The translations under genes and the position numbers were made by a program. Source: a bacterium (GTDB lineage Bacteria > Electryoneota > Electryoneia > Electryoneales > Electryoneaceae). From it: a DNA stretch of 64,000 bases. Location: NCBI GenBank assembly GCA_963675295.2, contig CAXXKJ010000002.1:1792001-1856000 (forward strand), in the 5' to 3' direction. The notes below the pieces were generated by a model. That model saw only the letters and a list, made by a program, of their open reading frames with translations, was not told the DNA's origin and ran no database searches. Shown here one piece after another: positions 4,641 through 19,933 of this stretch (its first letter is position 1; each line of letters opens with the position of its first letter).

Positions 4641-5366
4641 ATGGCTTTCACCCCAGAAACGCTGATTCCGTCCCTCCGAGAACGGATCCACGCACTGATC
4701 GACGCCGACTACGCAGCGTCCCTGCCAACGACCATGCCGGGGATGACGGTATACGACGGCGTCCGGGTTCCGGAACTGCGCGAGCTCGCCGGCAACGTGC
4801 GGCGGGAACAGGAACTGAAGATTCCCGACTGGATCCTGTACCTGAATCATGTCTTCCCGACCCACCACCGCGAGTTGATCCTGATCGGTTTGTATGGGCT
4901 CGACGGCCGCACCGGCGACCTCGACGACCTCTTCGGGGAGAAGTTGAGCGGCTGGGCGCGTCACCTCGACAACTGGGAGACGACGGACAACCTCGCCGTC
5001 GCGGCGGGACCGTGGGTGGCGGACGACCTCAGCCGGATCGGGTACCTTGAATCGTGGGCGGTGCGCGGCGAATCGTTGTGGAAGAAACGGCTCGCGGCGG
5101 CGTCAACGGTGTACCTCGCCCGGGCGGGGAAGGGAAACACGCATGCGTCGTTCAGGGTGCTGCGTCACCTGATGACCGCCGAGCAACCCGAGATCAAAAA
5201 GGCGGTGGGCTGGGCGATCCGTTCGCAGGAGGACGACGAGGCGGTCGAACGCTTCCTCGCGTGGTGGGCGCCACGGATTTCGCGCGGTCTGCTGACCGAT
5301 TGCGCGAAGAAGCTGTCCGAGGAAAGCCGGGAACGGTTGAAGCAGCTGGCGCACGAAGAAGCCTGA
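4641..5366 (+). CDS. DNA alkylation repair protein (AlkD-like HEAT repeat)
   Basis: GVRVPELR, LDNWETTD, W-x-K-R and IKKAVGWAIR motifs. Confidence 0.8.
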   Translation: MAFTPETLIPSLRERIHALIDADYAASLPTTMPGMTVYDGVRVPELRELAGNVRREQELKIPDWILYLNHVFPTHHRELILIGLYGLDGRTGDLDDLFGEKLSGWARHLDNWETTDNLAVAAGPWVADDLSRIGYLESWAVRGESLWKKRLAAASTVYLARAGKGNTHASFRVLRHLMTAEQPEIKKAVGWAIRSQEDDEAVERFLAWWAPRISRGLLTDCAKKLSEESRERLKQLAHEEA

Positions 5367-11560: not shown

Positions 11561-11680
11561 GGGTCGACCTTTCTCGAATTCTAGTTCGAACGTTACTCGT
11601 GAATGCACATGGGGTGGCAGCGAATGTGCCGGAACCCGCCCTCCCGGAGTCTGAACTCCGGAAGCTGACGCAAGTTTCAG

Positions 11681-11708
11681 AAAAAAGGGCGGGAAACGAT
11701 ACCCGCCC
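11681..11708 (-). terminator. Intrinsic terminator between rpsB and tsf
   Basis: Minus strand gggcgggt-atcgtt-tcccgccc followed by T6. Confidence 0.65.
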
Positions 11709-11715
11709 AGTGAGC

Positions 11716-12504
11716 TTACTTGCTGCGCTTGGCGGCAGCGCCACGACGGCGCCGGGGGCCCTGCTTCCGCTGCTTATCGTCCTGCGGTTCCTCGTCCTTC
11801 TTTTCCTGCTTGTGGGCTTCGTAAACCGCAAGGCCTTCGATGACGGCGTCCGTGAAGGTCTTGGTAATCAGACCGATGGACTTGTACGCGTCATCATTGG
11901 CGGGAATCGGATAATCGATCGGGTCCGGATCAGAGTTTGTGTCCACGATGGCGAAGATCGGCAAGCCGAGCTTTTTCGCTTCGCGGACAGCAATGTCCTC
12001 CTGCACGGTGTCGACGATGAACAGCGCGCCGGGCAGTCGCTTCATGTTGCGGATACCGCCGAGGTTCAGCTCGAGCTTGCTGCGCTCGGCATCCATCGAC
12101 AGGCGCTCCTTCTTGGTGACGCTGTCATACGTGCCGTCGACCACCTTCTTTTCCAGCGCTTCCAGCTTCTTGATCGATTTCCGGATGGTGGCGAAGTTGG
12201 TCAACATGCCGCCGAGCCAGCGTTCGCTGACGTAGGGCATGTTGGCGCGGGTGGCTTCTGCCTTGATGATGTCACGCGCCTGCTTCTTCGTCCCGACGTA
12301 GAGGATGCCATCACCACGCGCTGCGATACGCGACGCGACGGCGTCAGCAGTTTCCATCAACTTGAGGGTCTTGTTCAGGTCGATGATGTAGATGCCGTTC
12401 TTCTCCATGAAGATGTACGGCTTCATCTTCGGATTCCACCGGCGTGTCAGGTGGCCGAAATGGGATCCGGCGAGGATCAACTGCTGAACGTTAACGCGTG
12501 CCAT
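11716..12504 (-). CDS. rpsB: 30S ribosomal protein S2
   Basis: GSHFGHLTRRWNPKM, RWLGGMLTNF, IPANDDA. Confidence 0.98.
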   Translation of the reverse strand: MARVNVQQLILAGSHFGHLTRRWNPKMKPYIFMEKNGIYIIDLNKTLKLMETADAVASRIAARGDGILYVGTKKQARDIIKAEATRANMPYVSERWLGGMLTNFATIRKSIKKLEALEKKVVDGTYDSVTKKERLSMDAERSKLELNLGGIRNMKRLPGALFIVDTVQEDIAVREAKKLGLPIFAIVDTNSDPDPIDYPIPANDDAYKSIGLITKTFTDAVIEGLAVYEAHKQEKKDEEPQDDKQRKQGPRRRRGAAAKRSK

Positions 12505-12738
12505 CGTACTATCCTTTCCTGGTGCCCTCACCGACTCGAAGCAGGGACGGCTCGTCCGCACCCTTGGCCGGTTTGTTGAGCGGCTTTTGGCGACAAAAGG
12601 GTCGCCATGACTTATCGTACTGCCGGCAGGACCATCCCACCAGCAGGTAACAAAAGATCGAAGGGAGTTTCCCTTCGATCCGGAAAGTAGCTTGCCAGAT
12701 TGCCGGATGATGAGGTCCGGCGTGGTCTCCGGTTCCCG

Positions 12739-13143
12739 TTAACGCTTGGAGAACTGGTACTTCTTACGGGCGCCGGGCTGACCGTACTTCTTACGTTCCT
12801 TCTCACGCGGGTCGCGGGTCATGAACCCGGCACGCCGCATGATGGTCTTGTAATCTTCGTTGGTCTTGACGAGGCAGCGGCTGATGCCCAAACGCATCGC
12901 GCCGGCCTGGCCGGACAGACCGCCACCGTGGCAGACGGCGTAGATGTCGTACTTGCCGACACCTTCGACCGCTGCGAGCGGCTGCTCGATGATCTGCTGC
13001 AGGATTTCGCGCTTGAAATGCCCGAGCAGGTCCTTGCCGTTCACGACCACGTTCCCCGTACCCGGGGCGAGCCACACCTTGGCAACCGAGGTCTTACGGC
13101 GTCCGGTAGAATACACGGAATTCGCTGGAATCTTTGCCATCAT
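12739..13143 (-). CDS. rpsI: 30S ribosomal protein S9
   Basis: TGRRKTSVA, GGGLSGQAGA, ERKKYGQPGARKKYQFSKR. Confidence 0.98.
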   Translation of the reverse strand: MMAKIPANSVYSTGRRKTSVAKVWLAPGTGNVVVNGKDLLGHFKREILQQIIEQPLAAVEGVGKYDIYAVCHGGGLSGQAGAMRLGISRCLVKTNEDYKTIMRRAGFMTRDPREKERKKYGQPGARKKYQFSKR

Positions 13144-13148
13144 TTACC

Positions 13149-13577
13149 TCAGAGCGGGAACGGTTGTGGTTTCTGCGCGTCGTGCGGGTGCGTCTCCGAA
13201 GCATACACCTTCAGCTTCTTGATCTGACGGCGCCCCAGCGGCCCCTTCGGCAGCATGCCCCAGACGGCCTTGCGCAGCACACGGTCCGGATGTTTCTCTA
13301 GCATTTCCGACAACAGCTTGGTACGGAAACCGCCCGGATGTCCGGTGTGGTGCCAGTAGACCTTCTTATCGAGCTTGCGGCCGGTGAACTCCAGCTTGTC
13401 CGCGTTGGTCACGACGACAAAGTCGCCGCCGTCCACATGCGGGCTGAAGGTTGGCTTGTGCTTACCACGAAGCACGGTCGCGATGCGCGTGGCCAAACGT
13501 CCGAGGACTTCGCCCTCAGCGTCGATCACGTACCAGTTCCGCTCGACCGTATCCTTGTTCAAGTGATGGGTTTTCAC
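13149..13577 (-). CDS. rplM: 50S ribosomal protein L13
   Basis: [29 protein letters not shown]; GTG start at 13577. Confidence 0.98.
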
Positions 13578-13882
13578 GCTTCCCACCCTACGTTTACACA
13601 GAGAAAAAAGGGACGCATCCGCCGAAACCGCAGGCTGCCGGTTACGGACACGCACCCGGTGTTCTAGCTATAGAGCAGCCGAGATGATACAGCTCAAACT
13701 GCCTGAACGCAATACACTGCGGGCCTCCGGGAGGGTTTTCCCGGGGCGAGGCAAGATAAGCAGGGAGGGACGGTCACGCTAGCTCTGAATGTGCCTCGGA
13801 GACCGGGAGAGACAGGGGCGGTGTGGCGCACGGGACGGCGTGTTTGGGTTGTTCGTGTTGTTTGGTTCGCTCGCGAGGTCTC

Positions 13883-13914
13883 TTGACTTGAATCCCGTCT
13901 TGAACGTATGTTCA
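13883..13914 (+). promoter_or_regulatory. Candidate sigma70 promoter with a GAAC-N4-GTTC (LexA-like) operator over the -10
   Basis: TTGACT (13883-88), 18 nt, TATGTT (13907-12); palindrome TGAAC-gtat-GTTCA at 13901-13914. Confidence 0.45.
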
Positions 13915-13946
13915 GCTCCGCTGGCTTCTGTCCAGCCACCACGCTG

Positions 13947-14372
13947 CTAATACCAGCTTTTCTTCTTCTGCTTTTTTATCCAAGGATGCAGTAGACTGTG
14001 ACAAGGCTCGCAAAGACTAATAAGGTTTCGCATGTCATTTCCTCCACCATGATCTACTGGTTTGATGTGATGAACATGCAGAGCCACACCTGTTTTTTGA
14101 CATCGTTGATTTTGACAAGTGTAGTTATCCCGCTTAAGTACAGCTTTTCTTACCGGTTCCCAAACTTCTGGTGCCCTTAAATCAGTAAGATTATCCTCAC
14201 AAATTCTGTCAAATCGCCAATTCCAGAACCATCTTATAAGAAATCTAACGAAAACGTTTTGTTTATAGTATTGTTCGTCCATCTTCTGGATTTTTGGATG
14301 CATTACACCCTTATAATCCACTTTGTTACCAGGAGGATATACAACTTTCAGACGACTTTGATCCCATGACAT
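13947..14372 (-). CDS. HNH endonuclease (Zn-binding), low GC
   Basis: VLKRDNYTCQ..C, LHVHHI..GGGNDMRNLISLCEPCH. Confidence 0.88.
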   Translation of the reverse strand: MSWDQSRLKVVYPPGNKVDYKGVMHPKIQKMDEQYYKQNVFVRFLIRWFWNWRFDRICEDNLTDLRAPEVWEPVRKAVLKRDNYTCQNQRCQKTGVALHVHHIKPVDHGGGNDMRNLISLCEPCHSLLHPWIKKQKKKSWY

Positions 14373-14470
14373 TTCTCACCCCCAGTGGATCGATAATCCG
14401 CAAATAGTCCGGATCAATATACAAACAACATTAGATCCCATCACACCCACCTCGTTCGGAGACCTTCCTC

Positions 14471-16408
14471 ATGCACCTCGACCGTCTGTTCAATCTCCAC
14501 GTCCACCTGTCCCGCGAAGGGTACAAGCCCACACCAGTCCGTGATAAACGTTTCGCCTGTTCCTGCCCGTTGCCCGGTCATGGCAAGGGACGCGGCGACC
14601 GCAACCCCTCGCTGTCAGTCTTCGAGTCCGACGACGGCATCGTGCATTTCAAGTGTCATGCCGGTTGCGACCCGTTGCAGATCACAGAGTACCTCGGCCT
14701 CAAGCCCATCGATCTGGGCTATGGCGCTGACACCAGCCAGAACATCGTCTACGATTACCACAGCCCGGAAGGGACGTTGCTCTACCAGGTGGTGCGCAAG
14801 CCGGGGAAGGAATTCCGGCAACGCCGCCCCGATCCGGACACTCCGGACGGCGGCTGGATCTGGAATCTGAAGGGCACCGAGCCAGTCCCGTTCAACCTGC
14901 GCGGCATCCTGCGCGGGGACGACCCGATCCTGATCGTCGAAGGGGAGAAGGACGCGAACACGTTGATCGACCGTGGCTATGTCGCGACCACCAACTCCGG
15001 TGGCGCGGGCAAGTGGCCGGACGTGTTAAACAAGTACTTCCGTGACCGGCTTGTGTACGTGCTCTGCGACAACGACGAACCGGGCATGCGTCACCAGCAG
15101 CAGGTCGCCTCGGCGTTGGTGACGGTGGCGGAGAAGGTGGTGGTCGTGCCGCCGTTCGAGGACGCCAAGGACGTGACCGCATGGTTCCTGCAGGGCCACA
15201 CCGACCGCGAGTTCGCCGCCTGGCTGAACCGTGGCGAGGAACGGTCGTCTGGCGACAGCGCGCGTGTCATTCTGAACGGAGCGCAGCGACGTGAAGAATC
15301 TCCAGCATCGCACACGGCGGTTAAGTCGGAGATCCTTCTCGTGCCTACGGCACGTCAGGATGACACACAGACCACCCGTCACGGCGATGACCCGGGCCAC
15401 ACATCCACCGACACCACATCCTCATCCCCCGCGCCGTCGGTGCTTGATTTCGACCGGGACCGTGGTGACCTGCTGCTGGTGGAGGAGTTGCCGGAACCTC
15501 GCTGGGTTGTGCCCGGATTGTTGTGCGAGGGGCTGGCGATTTTCGCGGGCAATCCGAAGACAGGCAAGTCGTGGATCGCGTTGCAGGTGGCGATGGCGGT
15601 ATCGGCTGGGGGTCCTGTCCTCGGGCTCGAGGCGTGCGAGCCGGGATGGGTGCTGTACCTCGCGTTGGAGGACCATAAGCGGCGGATTCAGTATCGCATG
15701 CGTGAAATCGGCGGTGACGGTCTCGACGGCAGCGCCCTGTGCCGGCTGGATGTGCGTGTCGGCAGGAGCCTTTCCCTCGCCCAGATCGACTGGTGGCTGC
15801 ACAACCACCGGGACGCGCGGCTGGTGATCATCGACACCCTCGGCCGCTGGCGTGACCCGCAGGACAACAACAGCAACCTCTACGATCACGACACGCAAAC
15901 CATGGCGAAACTGCAACAGCTCGCGTTGAAGCATCACATCTGCCTGCTGCTGATCCATCACAAGCGGAAAGCTGCGGATGACACGGATATCCTTGGCGAA
16001 ATCAGCGGCAGCTACGGCCTCGCCGGCGCGGCAGATACCATCCTCGTGATGCGTCGCAAACGCGGGCGCGATCTCGCCGAACTGTTCGTGACCGGGCGGG
16101 ATATTGATGAGGCCCAGCACCGGATGGAGTTCAAACGTGACCCCGAATCCGACAGCCCCCTGCGTCACACCGGCTGGCAAATCACCGGCGAAATCGAGGA
16201 GGACGAACGCGACATGCTCGAAGGCAAACGGCGGCGGATTATCGAAGTGCTGGAAATGGAAGGCAAGGCGATGACCAACGCCGACATCGCCGCGTCGGTG
16301 GGGATCAACAAGTCGTACCTGAGCCAGTTGCTTCCCAAGATGCAACGGGAAGGGTTGGTGGTGAATGTCGAACGCGGTGTGTGGGGGCTGCCAAAGCAGC
16401 TAAACTAA
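14471..16408 (+). CDS. Primase-helicase fusion: Zn-binding domain, TOPRIM, RepA/AAA_25-like helicase, C-terminal wHTH
   Basis: CPxPGH..DRNPSLS..FKCHAGC; VEGEKDA and DND (TOPRIM); GNPKTGKS Walker A, LVIIDT Walker B, LIHHKRK; MTNADIAASVGINKSYLSQ HTH. Confidence 0.85.
   Translation: MHLDRLFNLHVHLSREGYKPTPVRDKRFACSCPLPGHGKGRGDRNPSLSVFESDDGIVHFKCHAGCDPLQITEYLGLKPIDLGYGADTSQNIVYDYHSPEGTLLYQVVRKPGKEFRQRRPDPDTPDGGWIWNLKGTEPVPFNLRGILRGDDPILIVEGEKDANTLIDRGYVATTNSGGAGKWPDVLNKYFRDRLVYVLCDNDEPGMRHQQQVASALVTVAEKVVVVPPFEDAKDVTAWFLQGHTDREFAAWLNRGEERSSGDSARVILNGAQRREESPASHTAVKSEILLVPTARQDDTQTTRHGDDPGHTSTDTTSSSPAPSVLDFDRDRGDLLLVEELPEPRWVVPGLLCEGLAIFAGNPKTGKSWIALQVAMAVSAGGPVLGLEACEPGWVLYLALEDHKRRIQYRMREIGGDGLDGSALCRLDVRVGRSLSLAQIDWWLHNHRDARLVIIDTLGRWRDPQDNNSNLYDHDTQTMAKLQQLALKHHICLLLIHHKRKAADDTDILGEISGSYGLAGAADTILVMRRKRGRDLAELFVTGRDIDEAQHRMEFKRDPESDSPLRHTGWQITGEIEEDERDMLEGKRRRIIEVLEMEGKAMTNADIAASVGINKSYLSQLLPKMQREGLVVNVERGVWGLPKQLN
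15264..15366. repeat. REP-like family C element inside the primase-helicase ORF (in frame)
   Basis: gtgtcattctgaacggagcgcagcgacgtgaagaatctccagc...ggagatccttc...tcaggatgacac, matching the intergenic 8180-8328 element. Confidence 0.85.
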
Positions 16409-16512
16409 CTAAAGAAGCTAAAGACGACAGGTACCCAAACAAACAGACTAAAGAGTAAATACTCTCTAAGTACAGGCTATACCTGCTTGTTTGGGTACTA
16501 TAGTTAGTTTAG
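16400..16512. other. AT-rich origin-like region: CTAAA repeats and nested inverted repeats
   Basis: CTAAA at 16400/16409/16418/16448; CTAAACTAACTA vs TAGTTAGTTTAG; GTACCCAAACAAACAG vs CTGCTTGTTTGGGTAC. Confidence 0.6.
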
Positions 16513-16568
16513 GTGGCATACAGCCCGGCGGAAGAGTCGTCGGTTTACTCTTGCTATCGTTGAACAGA

Positions 16569-17372
16569 TCAATCGCCTAATGGACCAAGTGCGACTTCCA
16601 AATCGAATCTCGCGTCATCGTTCCAGAAGTCGAAATCCGTGTCCTCCCAACCTTTGTCGGTATTATCTACGACGATGACCACCATGGTTTCGGCAGCAAT
16701 CAAGTTAGGTGCAACACGAACATGCTGTCCCTGAGTTGAAATGGTTTCGTGCCAGTAGACTGAAAAGTTTTCGCCATCCGCGTAGTCGTCATACTCGGCA
16801 GGTGACATGACAAATAATTCAAGTCCATAGTCGCCTGGCCAATCATTTAAGTCCATGTTCATTGCCAGAATACCCTCATATGGGATTTCAACCGGACTAC
16901 TGTATCTCCAGTGATTTTCATCCAAGGTCACGTTCTCCCAATGCACGAGTATGACAGGGTCAGGGGCGGGAACTGTCATAGCAACGCCAACATTCCAAAT
17001 CTGGTCGTCTGTCGTGGTCAAGGTGATGGTTCCTGAGTGATTACCATGAATCATATCGGTTCTATCAACCGTCACAGTCACGGCGTCTTCTTCATCCCTT
17101 GTTACACCTGATGCTGGGAAAACAGAAAGCCAATCGACGTCGGTTGTGATGGTCCATTCTAATTCTTGACCGCCATCATTACTCACCACAAACTGCAAAG
17201 TGTTGTCATCCTCTTCGAACACAAGCGAACTAACAGATACGCTAAGGATCGGATCTTCTTCATTTTCGTTCGGTGACGTTGGACCGGAATCATCACTGTC
17301 TGAACAGCCTGAAAAGGCAAGTAGCGCGATCAGAATTGGGACAAGAAACACGGATAACAACGCGGACTTCAT
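16569..17372 (-). CDS. Lipoprotein with BACON-like Ig domain, lower GC
   Basis: Lipobox LAFSGC; SNDGGQELEWTITTDVDWLSVFPASG..VTVTVDR. Confidence 0.75.
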   Translation of the reverse strand: MKSALLSVFLVPILIALLAFSGCSDSDDSGPTSPNENEEDPILSVSVSSLVFEEDDNTLQFVVSNDGGQELEWTITTDVDWLSVFPASGVTRDEEDAVTVTVDRTDMIHGNHSGTITLTTTDDQIWNVGVAMTVPAPDPVILVHWENVTLDENHWRYSSPVEIPYEGILAMNMDLNDWPGDYGLELFVMSPAEYDDYADGENFSVYWHETISTQGQHVRVAPNLIAAETMVVIVVDNTDKGWEDTDFDFWNDDARFDLEVALGPLGD

Positions 17373-17463
17373 GATCACCCCCTGTAAACATGCCATGTGT
17401 AGACAAGTTACATAATATACGACATTGATAAGCAGCGAGTGCGACTGTAGAGTCGCTTGCCGC

Positions 17464-18081
17464 CTACCAAAACAACCCGAACAGTTCCCGCATTTTCTGG
17501 ACGGCGGAGTCGGCGACCATCTCGGGGGAGTTCGAGCCGGATGCGTCGATGGTGAGGACGTGCATTTTCTTGCGTGCGCGTTTCGCCCAGGATTCGTAGG
17601 CGTTGTTCAGCTCGTGCATGTAGCCCGGGTCGATGCCCTGTTCGGAGGCACGGCCGCGTTCGGTGATCCTGCGGAGTAGCGTGTCGACGTCGGACTTGAG
17701 GTACAGGATGACGTCCGGCGTGCGCAGGTGGTTGACCATCTGTTCGAACAGCGAGCTGTAGTTTTCGTAATCGCGCTTGTCCATGAAGCCCTGCTTGTGC
17801 AGCGTGCGCGCGAAGATCTCGACGTCTTCGTAGATGCTGCGGTCCTGCACGCAGGATTGGTCGGCGGTGCTGATTTCGGCTTGTGCTTCGAAGCGTTTCG
17901 AGAGAAAGTAGACCTGCAGGTGGAAGGACCAGGTCTTCATGTCGGCGTAGAAGTCGTCGAGGTACGGATTGTTGATGACGGGTTCGTAGTACGGTTTCCA
18001 GCCGAGTTGGTCGGCGAGGGCCTGGGTGACCGTCGATTTGCCGACTCCGATATTTCCCGCGATGGCGACGAAGAGGTTCAT
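17464..18081 (-). CDS. Deoxynucleoside kinase
   Basis: IAGNIGVGKST, YEPV, DRSIYED, RITERGR. Confidence 0.92.
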   Translation of the reverse strand: MNLFVAIAGNIGVGKSTVTQALADQLGWKPYYEPVINNPYLDDFYADMKTWSFHLQVYFLSKRFEAQAEISTADQSCVQDRSIYEDVEIFARTLHKQGFMDKRDYENYSSLFEQMVNHLRTPDVILYLKSDVDTLLRRITERGRASEQGIDPGYMHELNNAYESWAKRARKKMHVLTIDASGSNSPEMVADSAVQKMRELFGLFW

Positions 18082-18161
18082 GGTATCCTTCCGTTTGCTG
18101 CCGTGAATATAACGGACATACCTTCGCCTCGTCAGCTCAGCTTACTCTCTGGAGAACTTTC

Positions 18162-19889
18162 ATGCGATCCGCATCCGTGCTGCTCCCGATTCTGCTGCTC
18201 GCCCTGTTGCTTGTCCCGTTCAGCTCCAACGCCGCCGCTCCGCCACCCGAATGGGGCACCGGCGGAATGATCGCCACTGCACACCCGCTCGCGACCGAAG
18301 CCGGCTGGGAGGTCTTGAACGACGGCGGGACCGCAATCGACGCCGCCCTCGCCGCGATTTACACGCTGGACGTGGTCTGCGGCTACAGCGAGGGGCTCGG
18401 CGGCGGTGAGTTCTGGGTGATCCGTGACGGTAAGACGGGCGAGGTGGTGTGCATCGACGGCCGTGAGGTCGCCCCGGCGGCAGCGCATCGCGACATGTAC
18501 ATCGGTCCCGACAGCCTCGTTGTCCCCGGCATGTCGGAGATCGGCATCCTCGCGGGTGGTGTACCGGGTTCGGTTGCCGCACGCGAACAGGCACTCGAGA
18601 TGTTCGGCACGATGAAGCGGTCGCGGATCATGAAACGCGCGATCCAGCACGCGGACGAGGGGTACGTTATCAGCCCCCGTGAGGCGGCGGTGTATGAGGG
18701 CGCGTTGCCGTACTTCAAGATGTTTCCGAGCACGGCGCGGGTGATGCTGGACGAGGATTCGATGACGGTCGGTGTGGGCGAGCTGCACATCCAGAAGGAT
18801 CTCGCGCGGTCGTTGAAGAAGATTGCGGACCATGGCGGCGACGAATTCTACCAGGGCAGCATTGCCGAAGAAATCGTGCGCTTCATGGAGGAGAACGGCG
18901 GTCTGATCACCGCGGACGATCTCGCGAACTATCACGCGACGGTGCGTGAGCCGATCCACGGAACCTACCGCGGGTACGATGTCTATTCGATGCCGCCGCC
19001 GAGTTCGGGCGGTGTCCACCTGGTGCAGATGCTGAACATCCTCGAGGGCTGGAATCTGCCGCAGTTCGGTGTCCGCTCGGTCAACTGGTACCATCATCTC
19101 GCGGAAACGATGGACTTGGCGTTCGCCGACCGTGCCGAGTTCCTTGGCGACCCGGAGTTTGTCAATGTGCCGGTCGAGGGGCTGATCTCGAAAGCGTACG
19201 CGGATTCGCTAAGAGGCCGGATCATCAACATCTACGACCGTCACCCACGCGGCCCGGGCAACCCGATGCAGTACATGGACAGCCCGCCGGACTCGTTGCT
19301 CAAGGACGGCCACACCTCGCACCTCAGCGTGGTCGATCAGTGGGGCAACATGGTCGCGTTGACGACGACGGTGAACACGCACTTTGGGTCCAAGGTCATC
19401 CTTGGGAATACGGGCATCTTCCTGAACAACGAGATGGACGACTTCTCCGCGCAGCCGGGTGTGCCGAACTACTTCGGGCTGGTTGGCACCGAAGCGAACT
19501 CGATCCGTCCCGGCAAGCGTCCGTTGTCAAGCATGACGCCGACGATCATCGTCAAGGACGGGCAGCCGTTCATGGCGGTCGGCGCGGCGGGCGGGCCGAA
19601 GATTATCACCGGCACATTGCAGACGATCCTCAACGTGATCGATTTCGGGATGGATGTTCAGGACGCCGTCTCCGAGCCGCGCATCCACCACCAGTGGTCG
19701 CCGGACTATCTGTACGTCAGCGAAGATATCTCGCCGGACGTCGTTCATCTGCTGCGTCTGCAGGGCCACAGCGCGGTGCATTACACACCGGGCAGCGTGG
19801 TGCAGGCGGTGCTGCTCGATCCGGAGACGGGTCTGTATTTCGGCGCTGCCGATCCACGGTCGGTCGGCACGGCGAGAGGAGTGAGGTGA
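18162..19889 (+). CDS. ggt: Gamma-glutamyltransferase
   Basis: GLGGG, IDGREVAP, HTSHLSVVD, NNEMDDF, PGKRPLSSM. Confidence 0.95.
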   Translation: MRSASVLLPILLLALLLVPFSSNAAAPPPEWGTGGMIATAHPLATEAGWEVLNDGGTAIDAALAAIYTLDVVCGYSEGLGGGEFWVIRDGKTGEVVCIDGREVAPAAAHRDMYIGPDSLVVPGMSEIGILAGGVPGSVAAREQALEMFGTMKRSRIMKRAIQHADEGYVISPREAAVYEGALPYFKMFPSTARVMLDEDSMTVGVGELHIQKDLARSLKKIADHGGDEFYQGSIAEEIVRFMEENGGLITADDLANYHATVREPIHGTYRGYDVYSMPPPSSGGVHLVQMLNILEGWNLPQFGVRSVNWYHHLAETMDLAFADRAEFLGDPEFVNVPVEGLISKAYADSLRGRIINIYDRHPRGPGNPMQYMDSPPDSLLKDGHTSHLSVVDQWGNMVALTTTVNTHFGSKVILGNTGIFLNNEMDDFSAQPGVPNYFGLVGTEANSIRPGKRPLSSMTPTIIVKDGQPFMAVGAAGGPKIITGTLQTILNVIDFGMDVQDAVSEPRIHHQWSPDYLYVSEDISPDVVHLLRLQGHSAVHYTPGSVVQAVLLDPETGLYFGAADPRSVGTARGVR

Positions 19890-19933
19890 AGCAGTTGCGA
19901 GTGCCGAGTTGTAAGTATCGAGTTAAACCACAC

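What the first reader, a model, noticed from the sequence alone, without database searches (positions are those of the whole stretch)
13883..16512. Lone primase-helicase unit: candidate SOS promoter, antisense HNH gene and its own origin-like sequence, with no integrase
Seen: a full Zn-finger/TOPRIM/AAA/wHTH primase-helicase with host-like GC sits just upstream of rplM. It has a TTGACT-18-TATGTT promoter whose -10 is covered by TGAAC-gtat-GTTCA, a low-GC HNH gene on the opposite strand between that promoter and the ATG, and an iteron/inverted-repeat block at its stop codon. No integrase, capsid gene or att repeat was found. Known: fused primase-helicases with adjacent iteron origins drive phage satellites and plasmids (P4 alpha, SaPI); GAAC-N4-GTTC is the LexA box of Firmicutes and Actinobacteria. 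Inference: a minimal damage-inducible local replication module, either a domesticated satellite remnant or a self-copying element that could use the HNH nuclease for spread.
Basis: partly seen in the sequence, partly recalled or inferred. Interest (0 to 1): 0.8.

Follow-up and report, generated by a model that had tools for sequence, protein, structure and literature searches.

The report
Integrase-less primase-helicase replication islet
A 3.6-kb foreign islet beside the ribosomal protein L13 gene carries little more than a phage/plasmid-type DNA primase-helicase with its own promoter and origin-like palindrome: a compact, probably DNA-damage-switched replication module that normally sits inside larger mobile elements.

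Summary
The described features are all present. Window 13819-17462 is a variable islet between the conserved rplM leader and the dNK stop codon. It holds an intact 645-aa T7-gp4-like primase-helicase (Zn finger, TOPRIM, RepA-type helicase) with an extra C-terminal winged helix. It also holds a foreign low-GC HNH gene and a BACON lipoprotein gene.

The unit is not lone. The genome has two more paralogs of the same architecture. A sister species carries an 81%-identical copy at an unrelated site. DNA homology between those two copies covers only the gene plus the 107-nt AT-rich palindrome after the stop codon.

The promoter and its 5' hairpin recur directly upstream of a paralog's ATG, so the HNH gene is a secondary insertion into the leader. 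TGAAC-N4-GTTCA overlaps the -10 and is the operator type conserved in lexA promoters of this bacterial family. SOS control is therefore plausible, but it is specific to this copy.

No recombinase lies nearby, although 42 of 80 distant homologues have one within 8 kb. Domain dN/dS is 0.09-0.34.

Best reading: a conserved, once-mobile replication module of P4-alpha or pRN1 logic. Replication and induction are untested. This is a new variant of a known kind, of moderate interest.

The parts
13838..13873 (+). Three overlapping 9-nt-spaced direct repeats (TGTTTGGGTTGTT type) at the left edge of the islet. Candidate binding sites of the C-terminal winged helix.
   Evidence: the repeat finder family D2. 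A similar block lies upstream of the G001 copy. Not significant by the unbiased k-mer test.
13883..13912 (+). Sigma-70-type promoter TTGACT-18-TATGTT of the primase-helicase unit.
   Evidence: 9 of 12. TTGACA-17-TATCTT and TTGACA-17-TATACA lie upstream of paralog 2 and of the G001 copy.
13901..13914 (.). LexA-type operator TGAACGTATGTTCA overlapping the spacer and -10.
   Evidence: One of 12 exact sites in the genome. The same motif sits in the lexA promoter and is conserved in lexA promoters of the family.
13920..13936 (+). 5'-leader hairpin GCTGGCTTCTGTCCAGC, 7 nt after the -10.
   Evidence: Read. A near-identical hairpin (GCTGGCTCCCTGCCAGC) lies at the same distance from the -10 of paralog 2.
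13947..14372 (-). Foreign HNH endonuclease gene (141 aa, GC 39%) inserted antisense in the 5' leader.
   Evidence: Pfam HNH E 2.8e-11. PHROG HNH families E 1e-17. Unique in the genome. No close relative in 79 genomes of the phylum.
14471..16408 (+). Primase-helicase, 645 aa. Domains: Zn finger (about res 30-66), TOPRIM (about res 150-235), disordered linker (res 259-327), RepA/SF4-type helicase (res 337-502+), winged helix (res 586-637).
   Evidence: dN/dS against the G001 copy.
15258..15370 (+). In-frame copy of a genome-wide small palindromic repeat (MITE/REP-like) inside the linker.
   Evidence: blastn gives 27 other places in G000 and copies in G001-G003. Present in the G001 copy and absent from paralogs. 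The region is disordered in the model.
16397..16515 (.). AT-rich (38% GC) nested palindrome starting at the stop codon. Candidate origin. Inner arms carry inverted TTGTTTGGGTAC.
   Evidence: About 87% identical to the G001 copy, with homology ending at 16514-16515.
16525..16552 (+). Terminator-like hairpin plus T-rich tail, separate from the palindrome.
16569..17396 (-). BACON-domain lipoprotein gene (275 aa, GC 47.5%). Cargo or hot-spot passenger, not part of the conserved unit.
   Evidence: BACON_2 E 2.9e-10. A 70% paralog at G000 C2:1514767-1515576 and weaker ones. Absent next to the G001 copy.
17470..17483 (-). Inverted copy of the left-edge 13-mer (TGTTCGGGTTGTT) inside the 3' end of dNK, at the right edge of the islet.
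   Evidence: (I17, I24) and 57: 5 sites in the genome, 2 of which flank the islet. The same sequence is native to dNK in G002, which lacks the element.

Best explanation
The islet is the replication module of a small mobile replicon. It sits in a variable hot spot between the rplM leader and dNK and no longer has (or never had) a recombinase of its own.

The conserved unit has three parts:
- a sigma-70-type promoter with a 5' hairpin;
- one gene for a T7-gp4-like primase-helicase that has gained a C-terminal winged-helix DNA-binding domain;
- an AT-rich palindrome directly after the stop codon.

Proposed working (inferred):
1. LexA sits on the operator over the -10.
2. DNA damage removes LexA, and a long leader plus the gene are transcribed.
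3. The winged helix binds the TGTTTGGGT-type repeats at the left edge and in the palindrome arms.
4. The hexameric helicase is loaded on the easily melted palindrome.
5. The TOPRIM primase primes, and host polymerase then copies the region, either in situ or on an excised circle.

Two later invaders are tolerated: a foreign HNH gene in the leader and a genus-specific small repeat in frame in the disordered linker.

Shown: domain architecture, intact motifs, purifying selection, conservation and sharp limits of the unit, different chromosomal sites in sister genomes, operator type at lexA.
Inferred: DNA binding, origin function, induction, any present-day mobility.
For: Protein:
- AAA_25 E 7.8e-28 and wHTH hits. 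PHROG primase/helicase E 1e-31.
- PDB profile search: RSF1010 RepA E 4.6e-12, T7 gp4 E 2.2e-7.
- The AF2 model (pLDDT 77) matches T7 gp4 over 591 columns, E 5.4e-17, and RepA with TM 0.68.
- Zn-ligand, TOPRIM (E157, D200, D202) and Walker A residues are invariant in 13 homologues.

Selection: dN/dS against the 81% copy is 0.13 (Zn finger), 0.09 (TOPRIM), 0.34 (helicase), 0.17 (wHTH) and 0.77 (linker), at dS 0.41.

Unit and mobility:
- DNA homology to the G001 copy runs only from 14458 to 16514 (83.7% over 2071 columns). Its flanks map elsewhere in G000.
- The paralog-2 islet (3.27 kb) is replaced by about 95 nt in G001.
- The rplM-dNK site is variable in 3 of 3 sister genomes. In G001 it holds a 121-aa wHTH remnant of a third lineage (48-51% identity) that still has its own palindrome.

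Cis sites:
- The palindrome folds at z -3.9, -2.3 and -3.0 in the three copies and z -7.1 in G011.
- In paralog 2, a 12-mer occurs 5 times in the islet out of 10 in the genome. A perfect 17-bp inverted repeat sits at both islet ends.

LexA:
- The operator lies between -35 and -10 of lexA: exact in 6 and near-exact in 6 of 16 family genomes.
- 7 of the 12 exact 14-mers lie outside my crude ORF calls.
- Other boxes precede an AlkZ-like glycosylase gene and an EEP-family nuclease gene.

Precedent: in pRN1 a roughly 100-nt stem-loop downstream of the rep gene is required for replication (PMC4234260; abstract and passages read).
Against: - No direct evidence of replication, induction or excision exists. 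Only assembled contigs of metagenome runs were available.
- Repeat enrichment in this copy is not significant by an unbiased test.
- A crude family-wide test for k-mers shared between upstream and downstream regions is weak: 27% against 13% with a shared 10-mer or longer.
- The LexA box is missing from the promoters of paralog 2 and of the G001 copy.
- recA has no exact box.
- Most genes behind the other boxes are not classic SOS genes.
- A 550-nt leader with an antisense gene may hinder expression.
- The palindrome could simply be a bidirectional terminator.
- 42 of 80 distant homologues have a tyrosine recombinase within 8 kb, so decay from such an element is a simple alternative.
Confidence: 0.55

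Rival explanations
1. Inert remnant. The islet is what is left of an ordinary integrase-bearing integrative element or satellite. The gene is intact only because decay is recent, the palindrome is a bidirectional terminator between convergent genes, and the LexA-like box is fortuitous.
For: - 42 of 80 related loci carry a tyrosine recombinase within 8 kb.
- Paralog 3 and the G011 copy have an upstream coding region overlapping the start, as in typical integrative elements. An integrase lies 13 kb from paralog 3 and next to the fourth primase.
- G001 shows outright decay of a relative at this very site.
- Low-GC passengers mark a high-turnover hot spot.
- The bare GAAC-N4-GTTC core is not enriched genome-wide.
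Against: - Domain dN/dS of 0.09-0.34 over dS 0.41 indicates long purifying selection.
- Two copies in different genomes share the same sharp limits, gene plus palindrome, with no other element genes beside either.
- The palindrome arms are better conserved than synonymous sites.
- A separate terminator-like hairpin follows the palindrome.
- The genus-specific repeat in the linker is shared by both copies. They therefore diverged and changed site within this genus.
Confidence: 0.25
2. Domesticated host function. The primase-helicase has been recruited by the cell as an SOS-induced factor, for example for replication restart, interference with incoming relatives or phages, or amplification of neighbouring genes such as dNK. 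It is no longer a selfish element.
For: - GC is host-like or higher (62.6%).
- The LexA-type operator occurs only in this copy.
- Purifying selection acts on the domains.
- It lies beside core genes.
Against: - It is not at a fixed locus: absent from this site in G002 and, as far as the contig reaches, G003, and only a remnant in G001.
- Related proteins were found in 8 of 41 genomes searched, G000 included.
- No match to any PADLOC defence model.
Confidence: 0.1

Closest known systems
Bacteriophage T7 gp4 / Twinkle bifunctional primase-helicase
   Same: Same order of Zn-binding domain, TOPRIM primase and RecA-type hexameric helicase in one chain. Best structural match (Foldseek E 5.4e-17 over 591 columns) and a sequence-profile match (E 2.2e-7).
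   Different: Has an extra C-terminal winged helix and a 70-residue disordered linker. Sits alone with its own cis sites instead of inside a phage replisome gene set. About 15% identity.
Phage P4 alpha protein with ori and crr (recalled from memory; only the titles of Yeo et al. 2002 and Ziegelin & Lanka 1995 were seen, in the reference list of PMC4234260)
   Same: One protein combines primase, helicase and a C-terminal winged-helix origin binder. Short repeats occur at two places flanking the gene.
   Different: The helicase here is RepA/SF4-type (AAA_25), not the helicase type I recall for P4 alpha. There is no integrase, no capsid-size or regulatory genes, and no att site. Repeat sequence is unrelated.
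pRN1 minimal replicon of Sulfolobus (PMC4234260; abstract and passages read)
   Same: About 3 kb: promoter, one multifunctional replication protein, and a roughly 100-nt stem-loop downstream of the gene that is needed for replication.
   Different: pRN1 uses a prim-pol domain and an SF3 helicase and is a free archaeal plasmid. Here the primase is TOPRIM/SF4-type, the host is bacterial, and the unit is chromosomally integrated.
RSF1010 RepA helicase and small-plasmid AAA_25 proteins
   Same: The helicase domain matches RepA (E 4.6e-12; TM 0.68). An AAA_25 + wHTH protein (31% identity over residues 339-643) is encoded on an 8.3-kb Caldicellulosiruptor bescii plasmid.
   Different: RSF1010 splits helicase, primase and iteron binder into three proteins. 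No plasmid or phage record covers 80% or more of this protein (0 of 57 and 0 of 47 records).
CTX-phi type LexA-controlled, integrase-less integrated elements (recalled, no call)
   Same: An integrated element without its own integrase, whose replication-initiator promoter is held by host LexA.
   Different: No filamentous-phage genes. Not at a dif-like single site (three different sites here). The initiator is of another class.
Phage satellites (P4-like, PICI/SaPI)
   Same: Replication module of primase/helicase plus an adjacent origin.
   Different: Integrase, repressor and packaging or capsid-redirection genes are all absent from the 3.6-kb islet.

Membership tests
T7 gp4-like bifunctional primase-helicase | N-terminal Zn-binding Cys/His motif | tested here: met
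   C32, C62 and C66 are invariant or nearly so in 13 homologues. CxC...H...CHxxC is read.
T7 gp4-like bifunctional primase-helicase | TOPRIM acidic residues (E, DxD) | tested here: met
   E157, D200 and D202 are invariant. PDB TOPRIM and gp4 matches.
T7 gp4-like bifunctional primase-helicase | RecA-fold SF4 helicase with Walker A/B | tested here: met
   AAA_25 E 7.8e-28. K363, G365, K366 and D455 are invariant. Matches to RepA, DnaB and gp4 folds.
T7 gp4-like bifunctional primase-helicase | Primase and helicase activity | not testable with these tools
   Needs enzyme assays.
P4-alpha-type origin-binding initiator | C-terminal winged-helix DNA-binding domain | tested here: met
   HTH_IclR, HTH_24 and Rrf2 at residues 586-637. 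An MCM winged-helix match. Helix-helix-helix-strand-strand in the model.
P4-alpha-type origin-binding initiator | Cognate short repeats at two sites flanking the gene | tested here: inconclusive
   Clear in paralog 2: 5 of the 10 genome copies of a 12-mer lie in its islet. In the window copy the repeats sit at the expected places but do not exceed shuffles.
P4-alpha-type origin-binding initiator | Helicase of the P4/D5 type (recalled) | tested here: not met
   The helicase is AAA_25/RepA-like. No D5-type family is listed.
Phage satellite / integrative element | Own integrase or recombinase | tested here: not met
   0 of 11 tyrosine recombinases lie in the window; the nearest is 120 kb away. 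No serine recombinase in the genome. The islet has only three ORFs.
Phage satellite / integrative element | Flanking direct att repeats, tRNA target | tested here: not met
   No tRNA. No flanking direct repeat. Only an inverted 13-mer pair.
LexA (SOS) regulon | Operator matching the organism's own LexA site, placed over the promoter | tested here: met
   TGAAC-N4-GTTCA lies over the -10. The same type sits in lexA promoters: exact in 6 and near-exact in 6 of 16 family genomes. B. subtilis and S. aureus boxes are CGAACN4GTTCG (PMC9578287 Table 1, passage read).
LexA (SOS) regulon | LexA binding and damage induction | not testable with these tools
   No RNA run is listed.
pRN1-type minimal replicon | Long stem-loop downstream of the rep gene, conserved among relatives | tested here: met
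   z below -2 in 10 of 29 wHTH-bearing homologues against 3 of 40 random segments.
pRN1-type minimal replicon | Prim-pol / SF3 replication protein | tested here: not met
   TOPRIM plus SF4 instead.
Homing HNH endonuclease | HNH catalytic motif | tested here: met
   Pfam HNH E 2.8e-11 at residues 89-129.
Homing HNH endonuclease | Repeated occurrence at the same site in related genes or elements | tested here: not met
   Unique in the genome and absent from all fetched primase loci. Only partial HNH-domain matches in 4 of 78 other genomes of the phylum.

The most novel reading that the evidence does not exclude
The genus harbours a previously undescribed class of 2.3-3.6-kb integrase-less mini-replicons. 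Each consists only of a promoter, a gp4-like primase-helicase with a winged-helix binder, and a palindromic origin.

The palindrome would be the head-to-tail joint of a circular form (inverted binding sites, arranged as <- ->). Integration near it, often as more than one unit length, would leave inverted terminal copies of the binding site. Such copies are seen as the perfect 17-bp pair around paralog 2 and the 13-mer pair around this islet.

Insertion may be steered to chromosomal look-alikes of the binding site, such as the 3' end of dNK. This copy would have placed the whole cycle under LexA.
Probability: 0.2. Interest if true: 0.8.

Novelty: new variant of a known kind. Interest (0 to 1): 0.5.

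Why it matters
Replication modules of satellites, integrative elements and small plasmids are usually described together with the recombinase that moves them.

Here the same compact unit (one gene plus cis sites) recurs at unrelated chromosomal sites in sister species of a little-known, uncultured phylum. It has no recombinase, it is under purifying selection, and it has limits that stop exactly at a conserved palindrome.

If it still fires, it would give three things. It would be a natural minimal replicon for a phylum without genetic tools. It would be an example of damage-inducible local DNA amplification next to core genes. It would offer a way to ask how recombinase-less elements change place.

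If it does not fire, it is a well-documented case of how such modules decay and are invaded, by an HNH gene in the leader and a small repeat in frame in a linker.

Tried and rejected
- Read evidence. Four runs from one study hold the stretch, all kept as assembled contigs of metagenomes. The islet lies in one contig. No RNA holder is listed, and no circular junction or depth signal can be read from contigs. The two listed 'joints' (14621>15542 and 15218>18230, with sides of 38 and 20 letters at 85% likeness) touch paralogous or repeated sequence and were not used.
- Rfam. Nothing reached gathering score in 12500-18500; two chance-level hits at E 0.33 and 0.79.
- PADLOC. No model for the primase-helicase or the BACON protein; only HNH-domain hits for the HNH.
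- Metagenome scan for close relatives. One distant relative (31%) and no close copy.
- Family-wide test for motifs shared between upstream and downstream regions. Weak: 27% against 13%.
- MAFFT alignment of the three upstream regions. It misaligned the promoters, so the promoter and hairpin comparison is by eye.
- A clean empty site for the G001 copy. G000 has 3.9 kb of other variable DNA there, so exact ends could not be defined.
- XerCD/dif-type integration. Considered and set aside, because three different sites are used. Not tested.
- HNH as a means of spread: rejected.
- Earlier notes of the scan: nothing bearing on this locus.
- Supplements of papers were not consulted.
Full report
WHAT IS THERE

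Window 13819-17462 is a 3,644-bp islet (GC 54.7% against 57.8% for the genome). It lies between rplM-rpsI (13149-13655 and 12739-13143, minus strand; L13 E 6.9e-46) and a deoxynucleoside kinase gene (17464-18081, minus strand; dNK E 1.1e-53). It holds three ORFs:
- an HNH gene, 13947-14372 (-), GC 39.0%;
- a 645-aa primase-helicase gene, 14471-16408 (+), GC 62.6%;
- a BACON-domain lipoprotein gene, 16569-17396 (-), GC 47.5%.

- TTGACT-18-TATGTT at 13883-13912;
- TGAACGTATGTTCA at 13901-13914;
- nested inverted repeats at 16397-16515, beginning at the stop codon.

THE PROTEIN

Pfam sees AAA_25 (E 7.8e-28, residues 337-502) and several winged-helix families at 586-637. PHROGs call residues 87-263 DNA primase/helicase (E 1e-31).

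A profile of five homologues hits RSF1010 RepA (E 4.6e-12), the T7 gp4 primase region (E 2.2e-7), small TOPRIM proteins and an MCM winged helix in the PDB.

An AlphaFold model built on 13 sequences has mean pLDDT 77.2, with residues 259-327 below 50. It matches T7 gp4 over about 590 columns (E 5.4e-17), Twinkle, and RepA with TM 0.68.

The Zn ligands, TOPRIM E157/D200/D202 and Walker A K363/G365/K366 are invariant in the 13 sequences.

It is therefore a gp4-like primase-helicase with an added C-terminal winged helix.

THE ISLET IS AN INSERTION IN A HOT SPOT

The flanks are core DNA in the three sister genomes of the genus:
- G001: 95% over window 11600-13818 and 92% over 17463-19890.
- G002: 80% and 83%.
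- G003: 76% on the left side.

Homology stops at 13760 (G002, G003) or 13818 (G001) and resumes exactly at 17463, the base before the dNK stop codon.

Between these points the sister genomes differ:
- G002 has 666 bp with a small low-GC ORF.
- G003 has a T9SS-tailed protein gene.
- G001 has 2.64 kb holding a heptamer tandem array, a 121-aa ORF and a low-GC P-loop ATPase gene. The C-terminal 69 residues of the 121-aa ORF are 51% identical to the winged helix of the window protein.

That G001 remnant is 48-51% identical to the window and G001-C49 lineage and 39% to paralog 2. It is still followed by its own 21-nt-arm palindrome directly after the stop codon. The site has therefore received members of this family more than once, or long ago.

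THE UNIT IS NOT LONE, AND IT HAS CHANGED PLACE

G000 has two more paralogs of the same length and architecture:
- C2:1711999-1713780, 52-58% identity;
- C2:2552016-2553764, 34-38% identity.
It also has a fourth primase next to an integrase.

Among 41 genomes searched (G000 included), 8 have a match. All 8 are in the same bacterial family: 7 of 15 other family members, against 0 of 25 genomes in other families of the phylum.

G001 has an 81%-identical copy on another contig. DNA homology runs only from window 14458, 13 nt before the ATG, to 16514, the end of the palindrome (83.7% over 2071 columns). The flanks of that copy map to G000 C2:1631811 and C2:1627934, where G000 has other variable DNA. 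Its neighbours are SnoaL and T9SS-tailed proteins, and no recombinase was seen.

The paralog-2 islet (L019 8656-11921, 3.27 kb) is replaced by about 95 nt in G001.

Both the window copy and the G001 copy carry, in frame in the linker, a copy of a small palindromic repeat. That repeat occurs at 27 other places in G000 and also in G001-G003. The paralogs lack it. The two copies therefore diverged, and came to lie at different sites, within this genus.

SELECTION

Against the G001 copy, dS is 0.41. dN/dS by region:
- Zn finger 0.13
- TOPRIM 0.09
- helicase 0.34
- winged helix 0.17
- linker 0.77

The flanking core DNA is 92-95% identical and the unit is 84% identical. The copies are therefore older than, or evolve faster than, the species split.

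CIS SEQUENCES

(a) Palindrome. It has 38% GC. It folds at -40.8 kcal/mol, z -3.9. The G001 copy folds at z -2.3 and paralog 2 at z -3.0. G011 folds at z -7.1 with ACGTGAGAT three times. The arms differ from G001 at about 8% of positions, against 32% at synonymous sites. A separate terminator-like hairpin follows at 16525-16552. Among 29 winged-helix-bearing homologues, 10 have a downstream z below -2, against 3 of 40 random segments.

(b) Promoter and leader. Paralog 2 has TTGACA-17-TATCTT followed after 8 nt by GCTGGCTCCCTGCCAGC, and its ATG lies about 45 nt further on. The window has TTGACT-18-TATGTT followed after 7 nt by GCTGGCTTCTGTCCAGC. Then comes the HNH gene on the other strand, and the ATG lies 550 nt away. 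The HNH gene thus sits inside the leader of the unit.

(c) Repeats.
- In paralog 2, TTGTTGTTGTTG occurs 5 times in the islet out of 10 in the genome.
- ATTGTTGTTGTTGC occurs 3 times in the genome, all in that islet.
- A perfect 17-bp inverted pair lies at the two ends of that islet. This is far beyond shuffles.
- In the window copy, TGTTTGGGT-type sequences lie at the left edge (three overlapping copies), in both palindrome arms, and inverted in the last codons of dNK.
- Exact k-mers in the window copy do not exceed shuffles, and my degenerate patterns were made after seeing the sites.
- The dNK 13-mer is native: G002, which lacks the element, has it too.

LEXA

The genome has one S24/LexA gene. 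Its promoter reads TTGATT-ct-GAACTCCTGTTC-...-TACCTT, followed by GTTCAGTGAAC.

In 16 genomes of the family, the GAAC-N4-GTTC between -35 and -10 is:
- exact in 6;
- present with one or two substitutions in 6;
- not seen in 4, one of which is a contig-end artefact.

TGAAC-N4-GTTCA occurs 12 times in the genome. Seven of these lie outside my crude ORF calls, most of them directly after -10-like hexamers.

Genes behind such boxes include lexA, an AlkZ-like DNA glycosylase and an EEP-family nuclease. They also include an AAA_15/AAA_21 ATPase, a Pirin fusion, a chemoreceptor and unknowns.

Against the box: recA has no exact site, the 8-nt core is not enriched (188 sites against 27-282 for other palindromes), and the promoters of paralog 2 and of the G001 copy lack it.

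The Firmicute box CGAACN4GTTCG is listed in PMC9578287 Table 1 (passage read).

SOS control of this copy is therefore plausible and specific to this copy.

FAMILY CONTEXT

The genome scan found 483 relatives in many phyla, of which the 80 best were kept. With an HMM built from the 11 G000 integrases and iterated once, 42 of the 80 loci have a tyrosine recombinase within the 8-kb flanks. Many of the other 38 are cut by contig ends.

No phage or plasmid record covers 80% or more of the protein (0 of 47 and 0 of 57). An 8.3-kb C. bescii plasmid encodes an AAA_25 + wHTH relative.

In G000 none of the 11 tyrosine recombinases lies in the window, and there is no serine recombinase.

READING

The best-supported explanation is a conserved, once-mobile replication module: promoter with hairpin, initiator/primase/helicase in one protein, palindromic origin. 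It has lodged in a hot spot and was later invaded by an HNH gene and a small repeat. This copy has LexA control.

It works like P4 alpha with ori/crr (recalled) and like the pRN1 minimal replicon, in which a roughly 100-nt stem-loop after the rep gene is required (PMC4234260; abstract and passages read). It is a member of neither: the helicase class differs from both, and the primase class differs from pRN1.

It fails the defining tests for a satellite or integrative element, having no recombinase, no att site and no packaging genes.

Rivals are an inert remnant with a terminator palindrome, and a domesticated SOS factor.

The boldest reading not excluded is a class of recombinase-less mini-replicons whose palindrome is the circle joint and whose integrated forms carry inverted terminal binding sites.

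Nothing here shows replication, induction or excision.

Noticed in passing
window 15258-15370 (inside the primase-helicase ORF): A 113-nt unit made of two inverted ~40-nt halves (GTCATTCTGA...GAAGAATCTCC type) matches 27 other places in G000 and copies in G001-G003. Here it is read in frame as part of the disordered linker (VILNGAQRREESPAS...ARQDDTQ). It is a small genome-wide repeat tolerated inside a coding gene.
   Followed up: partly
window 13656-13805 (minus strand, upstream of rplM): A block conserved in all four genomes of the genus, with a long invariant stretch (AGCAGCCGAGATGATACAGCT) and a TTGCGT-17-TATCAT promoter-like pair on the rplM strand. No Rfam family matches. It may be an undescribed L13 leader.
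   Followed up: partly
L019 8712-8728 and 11900-11916 (G000 C2:1710711-1713915): A perfect 17-bp inverted repeat AATTGTTGTTGTTGCGC bounds the 3.2-kb paralog-2 islet. Inside, after the palindrome, a second TTGACA promoter precedes a 115-aa ORF that resembles only the Zn-finger part of the primase-helicase. This looks like a decayed second unit in tandem.
   Followed up: partly
G000 C2:1377998, 2254728, 2626816, 3476990, 3857804 (outside the window; loci L024-L028): TGAACAT[CT][CT]GTTCA boxes sit directly after -10-like hexamers in front of an AAA_15/AAA_21 ATPase neighbour, a 625-aa Pirin fusion, a protoglobin chemoreceptor, an FG-GAP protein and a 615-aa unknown. If these are LexA sites, the SOS regulon is unusual.
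   Followed up: partly
L116-L130 (lexA promoters of the family): Besides GAAC-N4-GTTC between -35 and -10, a second conserved element TTTTGTTCAGTGAACA (GTTC-N3-GAAC) follows the -10 in several genomes.
   Followed up: no
L032 2790-2960 (G001, same rplM-dNK site): About 25 tandem copies of a heptamer (GGTTGCC/GGTTGCT) lie between the rplM leader and the winged-helix remnant.
   Followed up: no
L119 (G003 C3, upstream of lexA): The contig end reads as homopolymer runs followed by a sequencing-adapter-like string. This is an assembly artefact, so that promoter could not be scored.
   Followed up: no
L030 2738-3583 and about 5012-5194 (G000 C2:1512000-1520000): A 70% paralog of the BACON lipoprotein lies 1.4 kb from a 70-codon open frame with weak similarity (36%, E 4e-6) to the primase-helicase winged helix, next to a Cas4/RecB-like nuclease ORF. 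This may be another decayed element.
   Followed up: partly
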